A DNA stretch of 26,874 nucleotides from a virus (lineage: Duplodnaviria > Heunggongvirae > Uroviricota > Caudoviricetes), in the IMG/VR virus record IMGVR_UViG_3300046453_000093, positions 1 through 26,874 of that record; one strand, given 5' to 3'. Below are positions 4,010 through 16,859 of this stretch, piece after piece (position 1 is the first letter of the stretch; every line of letters begins with the position of its first letter). The notes beneath the pieces are model-generated. The model made no database searches, had not been told where the DNA came from, and saw nothing but the letters and a program-made list of their open reading frames with translations. The position numbers were made by a program, and so were the translations under genes.

Positions 4010-5113
4010 TTACCCTTCCTTTGCTACTAACCCTTCTTTGCTTTCAGTGATTTTATACGAGCCACCTGAAGTCCTTACAACCTGTTTGCCATTCTTCTTA
4101 GCATGACGAACACCATATTTGCGTAAACCTCTTGCTGTATTATGAACACCAAGAAAGATTTTTTCGAATTCGTATTCTTCAAGGTATCTCTCCAAATACT
4201 CTTTTAAAACCACTGTTCCACCACCAGTGAAAATTACAGCGTCTAGGTACGGAATAGAGTTTCTAAATAAGGTTTCCCATTCGGAAATCAATTCACCCGC
4301 ATGTAATTCAAATACTTCGTCTACAATTGGTTGGATATTAGTCCCGCCTGAAATATACCCTTGCTTGATTAGTTTTGGCAATACCCCCTGTGGATATTTT
4401 TTGCCAAAAGTTTCTTCAATACGTCTACCAATCTCAACATAAGCTGAGTACATCCCATTATTATTATGTTTTGTCAGGTCTGTAATTGGGTCTAAATCAT
4501 TTAAAGTAAGAAAGTTGACTGTTCCTGCACCAATATCCACTACAGAGACAAATTTGGTTGCTAATTCAGGGTTTGAAATTTCACCATCATCACTTAAGAT
4601 AAGGTCACAAAATGTTCCGAAAGGCTGTGACACCACAAGTACTTCTTTGATATCAACAGTTTTTTCAAAATCAGAACCATCAGCTAAAGTCAGCTTAATA
4701 ACGTGCTTTTTTTTGAAGATTTTTTGTAAATCACTTATTCTACTCTCGTTTTCAGAATGTTCCACAGGTAAGCCTAATACAATTGGGTCAACTTTAACAA
4801 CGTCATGGTCTTCAGCTAACATTGCCAATCCTGCTTTTGCAAGTGCGGGGAACATCGGATGTTTGTGTTTGTTGTTCCCACCAATCCAAGTGGTCTGCAT
4901 GTCTTGGTCTACTGCACCCTGACCAACTAAGAATTTCTTATTGTCATACTCTACTACAATATGAGATAAAGGGTCTTTTTCCTTACTGCTTAATACTGTG
5001 TCGTGTTTCTCCTTATATGTAGTTACATTGGATGGATAGTAAACTTGTTGTTTTCCGTTAAAGCCTTTTCCTTCACCGTATCCATCATCATAGCCCCATA
5101 CTTCTATTGTCAT
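4010..5113 (-). CDS. parM: ParM/StbA-family actin-like partition ATPase
   Basis: actin-fold motifs GYDDGYGEGK (phosphate 1), VDIGAGT (phosphate 2), FTGGG (adenosine); GGGGAGG RBS. Confidence 0.92.
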   Translation of the reverse strand: MTIEVWGYDDGYGEGKGFNGKQQVYYPSNVTTYKEKHDTVLSSKEKDPLSHIVVEYDNKKFLVGQGAVDQDMQTTWIGGNNKHKHPMFPALAKAGLAMLAEDHDVVKVDPIVLGLPVEHSENESRISDLQKIFKKKHVIKLTLADGSDFEKTVDIKEVLVVSQPFGTFCDLILSDDGEISNPELATKFVSVVDIGAGTVNFLTLNDLDPITDLTKHNNNGMYSAYVEIGRRIEETFGKKYPQGVLPKLIKQGYISGGTNIQPIVDEVFELHAGELISEWETLFRNSIPYLDAVIFTGGGTVVLKEYLERYLEEYEFEKIFLGVHNTARGLRKYGVRHAKKNGKQVVRTSGGSYKITESKEGLVAKEG

Positions 5114-14590: not shown

Positions 14591-14619
14591 TTGACAAGTG
14601 ATAAATAAAATGCTATAAT
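14591..14619 (+). promoter_or_regulatory. consensus sigma-A promoter containing the 19-bp box
   Basis: TTGACA-N17-TATAAT with extended TG; box ACAAGTGATAAATAAAATG at 14594-14612. Confidence 0.9.
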
Positions 14620-14696
14620 GTTTATAGATAGAGAATATCTACTAAACAACTTAACTCTCTTTTTACCAAGTTATGAGACTAAAATATAAACTTGTG

Positions 14697-14793
14697 TTCT
14701 AAATTAAGTGTGCAACTGGCGAGAGCCATACAAAGAAGGGTCACTCTCCAAGAAAGTGTGATTACTAGAACTCGTTGCACACTTAATTTAGAA
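14697..14793 (+). ncRNA. structured RNA element closed by a perfect 20-bp stem
   Basis: TTCTAAATTAAGTGTGCAAC (14697-14716) / GTTGCACACTTAATTTAGAA (14774-14793); interior has a TGGC-GAGA-GCCA GNRA hairpin. Confidence 0.6.
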
Positions 14794-14796
14794 AAC

Positions 14797-14972
14797 TATT
14801 TGTTAAATTGAGTGTTTGAGTGTGTGAATAGGCTATATGCCGAAATTCTTGGTGTTTCGCTACCATTAAATGCGAGCCTTAAAAGGTTTAGTTCTATGAC
14901 AATTGAATATTAAAAAGTTGAACGTTGTACTGTTGTGCAATGTATTAATTCACACACTCAATTTAGCAAATA
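14797..14972 (+). ncRNA. second structured RNA element closed by a ~25-bp stem
   Basis: TATTTGTTAAATTGAGTGT[TTGAGTGT]GTGAAT pairs with ATTCACACACTCAATTTAGCAAATA (14948-14972); internal hairpins. Confidence 0.55.
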
Positions 14973-15017
14973 CAAATCATAAATATAATTAAATGGGAAT
15001 AAGGGAGATTGATAAAA

Positions 15018-15650
15018 ATGACAGTTGAAGTAATGTCAATTCAAAGAGGACTTTCGGAATTAAAACTACTTGACAAACGTATTAATAATGCAATGTCAGG
15101 GGCTAAGTTAATTAGTGTTAGAGTGGGCGAAAAACCTGTCATTGGTTACAAGGATGATGAAGATTTTTCCGTTCAAGCAAACGCTAAAATTGATTCGATT
15201 ACTGACCTTATCAAACGTAGGGATGCAATTAAAGGTGCAATTGTCGTAGCAAATGCAACAACACCTGTAAAGGTTGGAGATGAAACAATGACTATTGCAA
15301 CTGCAATAGAGAGAAAAGATTCTATTGTTCATCTAAAAAACCTTCATAATTTATTGCGTAATCAATATGTCACAGCTTTAAATGAGTATCAACGTAAGGA
15401 TGATAGCTTTAAAGCTAATCTTGACAAACACCTTGAAACACTTTACGGAAAAGAGGGTAAAGCTAAAGGTTTGGAAAATAGGGATGCATTAAAACCATTC
15501 CTTGATATGAACGAACCACATTTAGTTGACCCACTCCAATTAAAACAGGTAATGGATAAACTTCAAGAGCAAATTGATGTTTTTGAAAGCGAGTGCGATT
15601 TATCACTCAGCGAGGTAAATGTTAAGACTGACATCACAGTTGAGTATTAG
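15018..15650 (+). CDS. coiled-coil protein, DIP1984/DUF6847-like (210 aa)
   Basis: GGGAG RBS; MSIQRGLSELKLLDKRI, VKVGDETMTIATAIERK, and LVDPL...ID.FESECD..LSEVN..T.I patterns; family assignment from memory only. Confidence 0.6.
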   Translation: MTVEVMSIQRGLSELKLLDKRINNAMSGAKLISVRVGEKPVIGYKDDEDFSVQANAKIDSITDLIKRRDAIKGAIVVANATTPVKVGDETMTIATAIERKDSIVHLKNLHNLLRNQYVTALNEYQRKDDSFKANLDKHLETLYGKEGKAKGLENRDALKPFLDMNEPHLVDPLQLKQVMDKLQEQIDVFESECDLSLSEVNVKTDITVEY

Positions 15651-15690
15651 AATCTAAAAGGGTGGGACAACCACCCTATATATCAAATAA

Positions 15691-16067
15691 TTATTACCAA
15701 TTTGTCGAAAACCACGAACTTCAATACGCCTTTATACAAGCGATATTGTATTTATATTTTTGATACTCAGTATCAAGACTAAAGAATTTAGGATGATACC
15801 TAAAATATAACTCATTAAGAGTTGCTATATTACAGGGTATGTCATATAGACGTACATTACATATGCGGAGAAATTCCAATCCTAAAAGTTCAAAGTTGAG
15901 AAATCAAGTATCAGAGTTCAAGATTCAAAACTCTTTTACCGCAATGGGCGGTTCAAAGTTTAGGTCTTAAAGGTGAAAGTTATTCAAAAAACTTGGATTT
16001 AAAGGTTATACCTAGTGCTTATTGATAGACTAAGTGGTTATCCTCCAAGCTGACAAGTTGGTAATAG
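15691..16067 (+). ncRNA. large (~377 nt) structured non-coding RNA of unknown class
   Basis: 15-bp closing stem TATTACCAATTTGTC (15692-15706) / GACAAGTTGGTAATA (16052-16066); several internal hairpins; heptamer array; no ORF of 60 aa or more. Confidence 0.7.
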
Positions 16068-16121
16068 TTACAAAACTGCCACAGACAATTGGGAGAGTTA
16101 TATCTGTGGTAGTTTTGTAAC
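16067..16121 (+). other. 19-bp hairpin (possible RNase III processing site)
   Basis: GTTACAAAACTGCCACAGA / TCTGTGGTAGTTTTGTAAC with one G-U; no U-tract. Confidence 0.6.
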
Positions 16122-16158
16122 TTAATAGTTATAAATAAGGGATGAAGGGGATTGAAAA

Positions 16159-16341
16159 ATGAGAAATAAAAAGTATTATGCTATCTTGCAAGAAAAGTTT
16201 AAAAATGCTCAAGGCGAAACAATCATTAAGGAATACGTTCACGATGTTGAAGGCTTTGCCCCTATGATTGCTAGAAGTGAAGCAGAAGCATATGCAAAAG
16301 AAAGTGGAATGACAGTTTCATTATTCTGTGCATACAAATAA
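16159..16341 (+). CDS. small hypothetical protein (60 aa)
   Basis: AAGGGGA RBS before ATG. Confidence 0.7.
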   Translation: MRNKKYYAILQEKFKNAQGETIIKEYVHDVEGFAPMIARSEAEAYAKESGMTVSLFCAYK

Positions 16342-16606: not shown

Positions 16607-16680
16607 GACTCCTTAGCTCAGTTGGTTAGAGCGTCAGCCTGTTAAGCTGAATGTCGTAAGTTCAAGTCTTACAGGAGTCT
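16607..16680 (+). tRNA. tRNA-Asn (GTT), no encoded CCA
   Basis: acceptor GACTCCT/AGGAGTC; D-arm GCTC/GAGC; anticodon arm TCAGC-CTGTTAA-GCTGA; T-arm GTAAG-TTCAAGT-CTTAC. Confidence 0.92.
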
Positions 16681-16787: not shown

Positions 16788-16859
16788 TGGGGTGTAATTC
16801 AGTGGTAGAAGGCAACATTTGGGATGTTGAGGTCGCAGGTTCGAATCCTGTCACTCCAA
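16788..16859 (+). tRNA. tRNA-Pro (TGG), no encoded CCA
   Basis: acceptor TGGGGTG/CACTCCA; anticodon arm CAACA-TTTGGGA-TGTTG; T-arm GCAGG-TTCGAAT-CCTGT. Confidence 0.9.

What the first reader, a model, noticed from the sequence alone, without database searches (positions are those of the whole stretch)
15885..15982. Eleven phased 7-nt units inside the large RNA
Seen: AAAGTTC AAAGTTG AGAAATC AAGTATC AGAGTTC AAGATTC AAAACTC (15885-15933), a GC hairpin ACCGC-AATGG-GCGGT, then AAAGTTT AGGTCTT AAAGGTG AAAGTTA (15955-15982). The purine-then-pyrimidine phase is kept while the sequence varies, and the tract looks single-stranded. Known: ring proteins such as TRAP and Hfq bind periodic ssRNA repeats, one per subunit. 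Inference: a docking track for an oligomer of the adjacent protein; unit number may match subunit number.
Basis: partly seen in the sequence, partly recalled or inferred. Interest (0 to 1): 0.75.

Follow-up and report, generated by a model that had tools for sequence, protein, structure and literature searches.

The report
Phage RNA with seven-base repeat track
The eleven 7-base units are real and are the hallmark of an uncatalogued folded RNA that always follows one small helical-protein gene in many phages (coliphage T5 included), most likely a row of docking sites for copies of that protein, though no binding has been shown.

Summary
Observation confirmed. 15885-15933 holds seven 7-nt units and 15955-15982 four more. 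This is the strongest period-7 signal in the window (54.4 bits; window mean 15.1, sd 4.6).

The tract is conserved. It sits in a 376-nt RNA (15692-16066) closed by a 15-bp stem, with a pseudoknot and an inner helix. Relatives support all three helices by compensatory changes. The RNA starts 42 nt after the 210-aa DIP1984/DUF6847-like gene (15018-15650).

The link holds both ways:
- 58 metagenome, viral and GenBank-phage loci and 42 of 47 bacterial loci fetched through the protein carry the RNA.
- All 23 testable degenerate tracts fetched by a DNA pattern alone have the gene 148-284 nt upstream.

Phage T5 has the pair (T5.085 plus an unannotated gap).

The conserved core is U-C-A-R with three free bases. 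The first block is 49 nt in 25 of 32 relatives. Spacing peaks at 7 and 14 nt across the family.

The in-phase link of the two blocks here is an accident of an inserted hairpin.

Best reading (0.45): a multi-site docking track for an oligomer of the co-encoded protein, working like TRAP or HutP sites. Binding is untested. No Rfam family or paper matches.

This scan had already noted the same family on at least seven other genomes.

The parts
14591..14619 (+). consensus sigma-70-type promoter (TTGACA-17-TATAAT with TG), probable start of the transcript that carries the leader, the gene and the RNA
   Evidence: 12 of 12 hexamer matches. Whether it drives the RNA is inferred.
14620..15017 (+). about 400-nt leader with long stems ahead of the gene; not analysed further
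   Evidence: sequence read; no ORF of 60 aa or more; no Rfam match
15018..15650 (+). partner gene: 210-aa helical protein, phrog_1491, DIP1984/DUF6847-like fold
   Evidence: phrog_1491 E 1.2e-63; 738 GenBank phage records; AlphaFold2 model pLDDT 89; 3KDQ is the only match with Z of 8 or more (Z 9.8); DUF6847 below cut-off (13.8 bits against 27; 13 of 27 relatives match)
15659..15677 (+). short G+C hairpin between the stop codon and the RNA
   Evidence: no T-run follows on the + strand
15692..15706 (+). P1 5' arm (TATTACCAATTTGTC) of the closing stem
   Evidence: pairs with 16052-16066 with one G-U; homologous stem 95.6% paired, 12 of 13 pairs with compensatory change
15707..15713 (+). conserved unpaired GAAAACC box
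   Evidence: near-invariant CGAAAA in alignments A2 and A3
15721..15726 (+). pseudoknot 5' strand (TCAATA)
   Evidence: complementary to 16020-16025; homologous helix 85.7% paired, 5 of 5 pairs compensatory
15742..15884 (+). variable hairpin region; holds a whole tRNA gene in some relatives
   Evidence: unalignable between relatives; tRNA inside it in L073, L081 and L094
15885..15933 (+). block 1: seven 7-nt units (the finding)
   Evidence: 49 nt long in 25 of 32 relatives
15938..15952 (+). lineage-specific 5-bp hairpin inserted in the linker between the blocks
   Evidence: absent from most relatives; other hairpins sit at the same spot in L066, L003 and L040
15955..15982 (+). block 2: four 7-nt units (the finding)
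   Evidence: aligns with the conserved AAAGTTT AGNNNTT AAAGNTN AAAGTTN of relatives
15992..15997 (+). Px 5' arm (CTTGGA)
   Evidence: pairs with 16044-16049; homologous helix 100% paired, 4 of 5 pairs compensatory
16020..16025 (+). pseudoknot 3' strand (TATTGA), lying inside Px
16044..16049 (+). Px 3' arm (TCCAAG), followed by the conserved GCTG
16052..16066 (+). P1 3' arm (GACAAGTTGGTAATA); 3' end of the RNA fold
   Evidence: nhmmer match 15831-16061, E 9e-24
16070..16118 (+). hairpin of at least 16 bp straight after the RNA; relatives have an intrinsic terminator at this place
   Evidence: terminators with T-runs read in L012 and L006 and in L002, L114 and L115

Best explanation
The tract is the repeat module of an uncatalogued, pseudoknotted RNA (15692-16066). 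This RNA is most likely made as the 3' part of the mRNA of the DIP1984/DUF6847-like protein gene at 15018-15650. Each unit carries the core U-C-A-R (heptad positions 6, 7, 1, 2) followed by three free bases. Seven units form block 1, and four more follow after a variable linker. Every unit is under the same constraint at a fixed 7-nt pitch, so the partner should offer a row or ring of identical sites. The simplest candidate is a homo-oligomer of the co-encoded protein, one protomer per unit. The closed P1/pseudoknot/Px core would hold the track as a long loop, giving a particle of fixed stoichiometry. This works like TRAP on the trp leader or HutP on hut mRNA. Shown here: the periodicity, its conservation, the RNA fold, the folding strand, and the two-way gene-RNA linkage. 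Inferred: co-transcription, binding, oligomer, stoichiometry. What the particle does for the phage is unknown.
For: (1) Periodicity is an outlier in the window. It recurs at the same place in relatives whose proteins are only 31-49% identical. In 66 of 113 loci the locus-wide best period-7 stretch lies within 700 nt after the gene, mostly 97-235 nt after it. The same holds for 44 of 47 bacterial loci. (2) Unit logo over 25 sequences x 7 units: A1 99%, A2 86%, U6 98%, C7 63%/U 26%, and position 5 nearly free at 0.16 bit. This is a motif-plus-spacer design. (3) Block 1 is 49 nt in 25 of 32 relatives, with no 7-nt insertion in any; two differ by 1 nt and L088 by 3 nt, while the four shorter rows (42-46 nt) look like alignment or hit-end artefacts. 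Hairpins are inserted only between blocks. (4) Successive UCAR motifs peak sharply at 7 and 14 nt even in relatives with short runs (17% and 10%, against 2.2% and 1.3% in control DNA). UCAR is 2-5 times commoner on the + strand than on the - strand of the RNA zone (Wilcoxon p from 1.6e-3 to 4e-8). Its complement YUGA is depleted, 3.6 against 9.3 per kb, in the short-run group. (5) The scaffold is real: P1, pseudoknot and Px are 95.6, 85.7 and 100% paired, with 12/13, 5/5 and 4/5 compensatory pairs; 0 of 500 shuffles reach this, and it collapses when partners are slid. Frequent G-U pairs show that the + strand folds. (6) Linkage holds both ways. All 58 nhmmer matches lie directly after the gene on its strand. 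All 23 testable degenerate tracts found by DNA pattern alone have the gene 148-284 nt upstream on the same strand. (7) In most relatives the RNA starts about 6-40 nt after the stop codon, leaving no room for its own promoter.
Against: There is no binding, expression or oligomer evidence of any kind. The protein model is a helical bundle with no recognised RNA-binding domain, and its only structural relative (3KDQ) has no known function. Conserved polar and basic residues are the same in relatives with long and short tracts. Thermodynamic folding does not single the tract out as unpaired. In T5 and many freshwater relatives the array is short or irregular, so a strict 7 x 7 array is not essential to the family.
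Confidence: 0.45

Rival explanations
1. RNA-only role: the periodic strand makes tertiary or intermolecular RNA contacts, for instance in a homo-oligomeric assembly as in ROOL and GOLLD. The neighbouring protein would then act on the RNA in some other way, or not at all.
For: It is a large, pseudoknotted, phage-borne RNA, sometimes next to or enclosing tRNA genes, as ROOL and GOLLD are. Those form RNA-only cages (bioRxiv 10.1101/2024.12.08.627333, listed; only its title and abstract start were read). The protein has no known RNA-binding fold.
Against: No covarying partner for any tract column. Eleven units with the same two invariant bases need a periodic partner, and no other periodic strand exists in the RNA. 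A fold-back or self-duplex would put purine opposite purine at positions 3 and 4 (logo). Rfam's ROOL and GOLLD models give no match.
Confidence: 0.2
2. Decoy or sponge: the multivalent UCAR display soaks up a host RNA-binding protein or ribonuclease during infection. The adjacent protein would be a helper or unrelated.
For: The RNA carries about seven single-strand-biased UCAR motifs, and the complementary motif is depleted. This is the design of CsrB/RsmZ-type sponges (my own knowledge).
Against: By my own knowledge, sponge arrays usually drift in copy number, whereas block 1 is held at 49 nt in 25 of 32 relatives. Hosts range from Bacillota to Proteobacteria, Deinococcus and Bacteroidota, so the target would have to be universal. 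The strict two-way linkage to one phage gene is not needed for a host-protein sponge.
Confidence: 0.15
3. Cis-acting 3' UTR: the element only stabilises, terminates or autoregulates the mRNA of the upstream gene.
For: It starts a few bases after the stop codon and is often followed by an intrinsic terminator.
Against: A 260-380-nt fold with a pseudoknot and an 11-unit periodic strand, kept across phyla, is far more than a stabiliser needs. Heptad runs at the gene's own ribosome-binding site, as expected for autoregulation, occur in only 2 of 97 loci and not in this window.
Confidence: 0.08
4. DNA-level element: iterons, an origin, primase sites or a protein-binding array on double-stranded DNA.
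For: Phased short repeats are typical of iterons and centromere sites. G(T/C)T inside the units resembles some primase recognition triplets (my own knowledge).
Against: The tract is embedded in helices that covary and use G-U pairs, which would be A-C mismatches on the other strand. Motif counts are strongly strand-asymmetric. A 7-bp pitch does not put sites on one face of B-DNA.
Confidence: 0.03

Closest known systems
HutP bound to hut mRNA (Bacillus subtilis antiterminator)
   Same: Short conserved motif plus spacer repeated at a 7-nt pitch (UAG-N4) in single-stranded RNA, with one motif per subunit of a homo-oligomer (my own knowledge of the published structures).
   Different: HutP sites have 3 + 3 units in a regulatory leader. 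Here there are 7 + 4 units of UCAR-N3 inside a closed, pseudoknotted RNA of about 380 nt at the 3' end of the partner's own mRNA. The partner is a helical DIP1984-like protein, not an alpha/beta HutP fold. Binding is untested.
TRAP bound to the trp leader (11 (G/U)AG repeats, 11-subunit ring)
   Different: The pitch there is 5-6 nt, the motif differs, the protein is a beta-sheet ring, and the role is regulatory. No ring is shown here.
OLE RNA with OapA/B/C; ROOL and GOLLD RNAs
   Same: Large, ornate bacterial or phage RNAs of unknown or poorly known function. OLE has dedicated partner proteins encoded nearby. ROOL and GOLLD are phage-associated and often near tRNA genes.
   Different: There is no sequence or structure match (no Rfam match at E up to 10). 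ROOL and GOLLD are RNA-only assemblies. None of them has a heptad-register strand.
DIP1984 / DUF6847 protein family (PF20935; PDB 3KDQ)
   Same: Best and only clear fold match of the partner protein (Z 9.8, 151 of 152 residues aligned; Foldseek probability 1.00). 13 of 27 relatives give weak DUF6847 matches.
   Different: The window protein scores 13.8 bits against a cut-off of 27. It is about 60 residues longer than 3KDQ, and the rmsd is 9.4 A. The family has no known function.
RAGATH-27 RNA motif (Rfam RF03100), named as closest by earlier notes of this scan
   Same: Nothing that I could verify here.
   Different: No RF03100 match at E up to 10 in the window RNA or in the T5-like copy, nor above the gathering score in 12 related loci.

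Membership tests
Heptad-repeat RNA that follows phrog_1491 genes (uncatalogued family defined here and in earlier notes of the scan) | lies directly after the gene, on the same strand | tested here: met
   The RNA starts 42 nt after the stop codon. All 58 nhmmer matches have this arrangement.
Heptad-repeat RNA that follows phrog_1491 genes (uncatalogued family defined here and in earlier notes of the scan) | closing stem P1, pseudoknot and inner helix Px | tested here: met
   The window has 15-, 6- and 6-bp complements at the homologous places. The family helices covary.
Heptad-repeat RNA that follows phrog_1491 genes (uncatalogued family defined here and in earlier notes of the scan) | sequence profile match | tested here: met
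   nhmmer with a profile of 14 relatives matches 15831-16061 at E 9e-24. The 5' half aligns only by MAFFT.
Heptad-repeat RNA that follows phrog_1491 genes (uncatalogued family defined here and in earlier notes of the scan) | 7 + 4 units with A1 and U6 kept | tested here: met
Any Rfam 15 family (including ROOL, GOLLD, OLE, RAGATH-27, tmRNA, 6S) | covariance-model score at or above the gathering threshold | tested here: not met
   No match above the gathering score. Only noise at E up to 10 in 15651-16158.
TRAP/HutP-type periodic protein-docking track | short motif plus spacer repeated at a fixed pitch | tested here: met
   UCAR-N3 with a 7-nt pitch
TRAP/HutP-type periodic protein-docking track | the track is single-stranded | tested here: inconclusive
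   No covarying pairs and the complement motif is depleted. But the predicted unpaired probability is no higher than for the rest of the RNA.
TRAP/HutP-type periodic protein-docking track | homo-oligomeric partner that binds one unit per subunit | not testable with these tools
   Only a monomer model could be made. No protein-RNA or multimer prediction was available.
DUF6847 / DIP1984 (PF20935) | Pfam gathering score for the whole protein | tested here: not met
   13.8 bits against 27; E 0.06
DUF6847 / DIP1984 (PF20935) | shared fold with 3KDQ | tested here: met
   Z 9.8, the only chain with Z of 8 or more among 48,161. This is below the caution level the tool gives for helical bundles, so the support is moderate.

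The most novel reading that the evidence does not exclude
A new class of phage ribonucleoprotein. A closed, pseudoknotted RNA presents a heptad-register track of UCAR sites. On this track a fixed number (7 + 4) of copies of a DIP1984-like protein assemble, all made from one transcript. The pair is present in hundreds of phages from T5 to Bacillus and Clostridium phages and in prophages.
Probability: 0.4. Interest if true: 0.85.

Novelty: categorically new. Interest (0 to 1): 0.75.

Why it matters
If the reading holds, a model phage studied for seventy years (T5: gene T5.085 plus an unannotated 363-nt gap) and hundreds of other phages encode an RNA-protein particle that nobody has described. 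The geometry is simple and testable: one 7-base unit per protomer. That would give a function to the DIP1984/DUF6847 fold, for which there is a crystal structure but no known role. It would also correct the widespread 'tail fiber protein' label of phrog_1491 and add a large structured RNA class to the few known in phages. Even if the protein does not bind, the RNA itself is well supported by covariation and deserves a family entry.

Tried and rejected
- Chance or low complexity: rejected.
- Coding: the only open frame over the tract has no start codon and begins right after a stop. A 7-nt period is not a codon period.
- Simple tandem repeat: TRF finds none. Perfect (AAAGTTC)n-type arrays do exist in other viral contigs, but without the gene, and they are a different thing.
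- Fold-back hairpin or self-duplex of the tract: A1 could pair with U6 in any register that is a multiple of 7. But positions 3 and 4 would be purine opposite purine, and no covariation is seen.
- 'Always beside tRNA genes': only 16 of 97 unique loci have a tRNA within about 3 kb. The window has tRNA-Asn and tRNA-Pro 540 nt downstream.
- T-loop mimicry (GUUCAAA resembles G53-A59 of tRNA): position 5, the U54 equivalent, is free and no stems flank the units. I kept it only as a lead.
- RAGATH-27, ROOL, GOLLD: no Rfam match.
- Protein-tract co-variation: none found.
- Defence-system models (PADLOC): only a noise-level match.
- Literature: no paper for DUF6847, one irrelevant paper for DIP1984, and nothing on heptanucleotide-repeat RNA in phages or a T5 non-coding RNA.
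- DNA searches of GenBank phages found no near or distant match.

Full report
**1. The observation**

Seven consecutive 7-nt units run from 15885 to 15933. A 5-bp hairpin follows at 15938-15952, then four more units at 15955-15982, 70 nt (10 x 7) from the first. Against shuffles, the period-7 phase information is z 8.2 for the 49-nt block and 9.2 for the whole 98 nt. No other period from 2 to 12 stands out.

15885 is the maximum for period 7: 54.4 bits, against a mean of 15.1 (sd 4.6) and a runner-up of 37.6. Tandem Repeats Finder reports nothing. This fits units that keep their phase but not their sequence.

**2. Setting**

The window is the first 26,874 bases of a 90.9-kb virus record. It carries RecD2, HU, PhoH and terminase-like genes.

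The tract lies in a 508-nt stretch (15651-16158) with no ORF of 60 aa or more, after a gene at 15018-15650. That gene belongs to phrog_1491. The family is labelled 'tail fiber protein' without visible basis. It occurs in 738 GenBank phage records: T5-like phages of Salmonella and E. coli, and Bacillus, Brevibacillus, Vibrio, Pseudomonas, Erwinia and Klebsiella phages.

In the six annotated records I opened, the gene is followed by an unannotated or only doubtfully annotated gap of 250-1200 nt.

**3. The tract is conserved**

I fetched loci through the protein: 80 metagenome and 29 viral loci, with protein identity 30-49%. I added three annotated GenBank phage records and the window itself.

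- In 66 of the 113 loci, the strongest period-7 stretch of the whole ~6.6-kb locus lies within 700 nt after the gene. Most lie 97-235 nt after it and share the consensus AAAGYTC.
- An independent set of 47 bacterial genome loci gave the same result in 44. These are mostly Bacillus, Brevibacillus, Domibacillus and Clostridia, probably prophages, with single loci from Deinococcus, Cyclobacteriaceae and Polyangiales.

**4. It is part of a structured RNA**

Alignment of the regions after the gene shows a conserved element of 260-380 nt. Three helices covary:

| Helix | Cells paired | Pairs with compensatory change |
|---|---|---|
| P1 (closing stem) | 95.6% | 12 of 13 |
| Pseudoknot | 85.7% | 5 of 5 |
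| Px (inner helix) | 100% | 4 of 5 |

The pseudoknot joins a 5' strand to a strand inside Px. Zero of 500 shuffles reach the observed values, and sliding the partners by 1-3 columns collapses the pairing. G-U pairs are common, for instance 15 of 17 sequences at one P1 position. So it is the + strand that folds.

In the window the parts are:
- P1: 15692-15706 with 16052-16066, 15 bp including one G-U.
- Pseudoknot: 15721-15726 with 16020-16025.
- Px: 15992-15997 with 16044-16049.

A sequence profile of 14 relatives matches the window at 15831-16061 with E 9e-24. It matches 58 sequences in all: the window plus 57 loci, some of them duplicate records of one contig. Every match is on the gene's strand and directly after it. 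In most relatives the RNA begins about 6-40 nt after the stop codon, and 42 nt here. It is therefore most simply the 3' part of the gene's mRNA; this is inferred. Many relatives have an intrinsic terminator right after P1.

Rfam 15 has no match, even at E up to 10.

**5. Anatomy of the units**

Over 25 relatives x 7 units, the base frequencies are:

| Position | Content |
|---|---|
| 1 | A 99% |
| 2 | A 86%, G 13% |
| 3 | mostly purine |
| 4 | G 56% |
| 5 | nearly free (0.16 bit) |
| 6 | U 98% |
| 7 | C 63%, U 26% |

The conserved core is therefore U-C-A-R, read across the unit boundary, followed by three loosely constrained bases.

- Units 1 and 7 are the best conserved (AAAGYTC). Block 1 is 49 nt in 25 of 32 relatives. 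Two of the rest differ by 1 nt and L088 by 3 nt; four aligned rows are 42-46 nt, which look like alignment or hit-end artefacts. No relative has gained a 7-nt unit.
- Hairpins are inserted only at two spots: between the blocks (window, L066, L003, L040) and inside block 2 (L001, L088).
- The linker between the blocks is 8-10 nt in most relatives I read, so the two blocks are out of phase there. The window's in-phase 21 nt results from its own 13-nt hairpin insert. 'Eleven phased units' should read '7 + 4'.
- No tract column covaries with any other column.

**6. The register is a family-wide feature**

By a strict A1/U6 test, 48 of 90 unique loci have four or more in-phase units after the gene. 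Only 1 of 80 control zones upstream does. The run lengths pile up at seven: 14 loci, more than at six (3) or eight (5).

Relatives with short runs, many of them freshwater, and T5 itself still have the RNA. In all groups the RNA zone holds about seven UCAR motifs. That is 2-5 times the count on the opposite strand (Wilcoxon p from 1.6e-3 to 4e-8). The distance between successive motifs peaks at 7 and 14 nt: 17% and 10% in the short-run group, against 2.2% and 1.3% in control DNA. The complementary motif YUGA is depleted in the short-run group, 3.6 against 9.3 per kb.

**7. Reciprocal test**

I searched the viral contig collection with a degenerate DNA pattern of the tract alone: unit 1, five units of A-N4-T-N, then unit 7. 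By my own rough estimate, far less than one match is expected by chance. It gave 34 places.
- Twenty-three have the protein gene 148-284 nt upstream on the same strand.
- Three lie too close to a contig end to tell.
- The other eight are perfect tandem repeats of 7 or 14 nt, a different kind of sequence, and lack the gene.

So every degenerate tract that could be tested is linked to the gene.

**8. The protein**

The AlphaFold2 model is confident (pLDDT 89). It is a bundle of long helices capped by a small sheet. Its only clear structural relative is 3KDQ, the DIP1984 protein of Corynebacterium diphtheriae, which has no known function:
- Foldseek E 8e-3, probability 1.00.
- Z 9.8 with 151 of 152 residues aligned; the next hit has Z 7.3.

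Pfam DUF6847 matches 13 of 27 relatives weakly, and the window protein below the cut-off. No PDB sequence match, no NCBIfam name and no defence-system model applies. Conserved polar and basic residues (K16, K20, R21, R67, R68, K72, N79, K100 and others) are kept alike in relatives with long and short tracts.

**9. How it most likely works**

Eleven units under the same two-base constraint at a fixed pitch imply a partner with repeated, identical sites. The RNA has no second periodic strand, and self-pairing is ruled out by the logo. A homo-oligomeric protein is therefore the simplest partner.

The co-encoded and probably co-transcribed protein is the obvious candidate. It is linked in both directions across hosts from several phyla. 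The first block is held at a nearly constant length, and hairpins enter only between blocks. This argues for a defined architecture rather than a sponge of drifting copy number.

I put this at 0.45. The alternatives are:
- RNA-only tertiary or quaternary contacts: 0.20.
- A decoy for a host factor: 0.15.
- A purely cis-acting 3' UTR: 0.08.
- A DNA-level element: 0.03.

Binding, oligomeric state, stoichiometry and biological role are all untested.

**10. Comparison with what is known**

In working principle the closest cases are HutP (UAG-N4, also a 7-nt pitch, one motif per subunit) and TRAP. In gene organisation the closest is OLE RNA with its Oap proteins, and in habitat ROOL and GOLLD. It is a member of none of these families.

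I found no paper on it. Phage T5 carries the pair: T5.085 (43505-44143, minus strand) and an unannotated gap (43142-43504) that the profile matches at E 9e-10. That makes the idea directly testable in a model phage.

**11. Earlier notes of this scan**

I tested their claims independently.
- Confirmed: the gene-RNA pair, the pseudoknotted fold, the DIP1984-like fold, the T5 copy, and tRNA genes embedded in some copies.
- Not confirmed here: the RAGATH-27 resemblance, and heptads at the gene's ribosome-binding site.

**12. Limits**

- The alignments come from MAFFT and nhmmer, and the variable region is not alignable.
- All functional statements are inference from sequence.

Noticed in passing
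L073:3701-3775, L081:3705-3789, L094:3706-3781: A whole tRNA gene (Leu, Phe, Ile) sits inside the RNA's variable region, between the 5' hairpin and the heptad tract. Either the RNA tolerates being cut by tRNA processing, or the tRNA stays as a domain.
   Followed up: partly
L173, L184, L190, L191, L194, L197, L198, L200 (coordinates): Perfect tandem arrays such as (AAAGTTC)n and (AAAGCTCAAAGTTC)n, up to 14 copies, occur in other viral contigs without the partner gene. Two of them lie inside open frames of about 1,600 residues that run to the end of the fetched stretch. They use the same word as the tract's consensus unit but are another kind of repeat.
   Followed up: partly
window 14591-15017: A perfect sigma-70-type promoter (TTGACA-17-TATAAT with TG) is followed by a leader of about 400 nt with two very long stems before the partner gene. 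It has no Rfam match. Two in-phase heptad-like units (AAAGTTG AACGTTG) lie at 14914-14927.
   Followed up: no
Relatives have ordinary intrinsic terminators at this place.
   Followed up: no
L001:3625-3702 and 4160-4434; L003:4422-4529: Other phage RNA motifs cluster at the same loci. In Brevibacillus phage Jenst, a skipping-rope RNA lies between the gene and the heptad RNA, and a BsrG-like RNA lies after it. In Clostridium phage D-1873, a drum RNA lies after the heptad RNA.
   Followed up: no
NC_005859 43142-44143 (locus L167): T5.085 is annotated 'tail fiber protein', as are many phrog_1491 members. I saw no evidence for that label. The 363 nt after it are unannotated and hold the RNA.
   Followed up: partly
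L132 (DASQNU010000236.1): A contig binned as 'Candidatus Bathyarchaeia archaeon' carries a gene-RNA pair of the Brevibacillus prophage type (44% identity; tract AAAGCTC AAAGGTT ...). It is probably a mis-binned bacterial or phage contig.
   Followed up: no
L098:3797-3845: A different repeat with a 14-nt period (TCTTAGC GAGGGGG, 3.5 copies) lies right after the gene in one viral contig.
   Followed up: no
window 16607-16680 and 16788-16859: tRNA-Asn(GTT) and tRNA-Pro(TGG) lie about 540 nt downstream of the RNA. A 60-aa ORF (16159-16341) with no family match lies in between.
   Followed up: no
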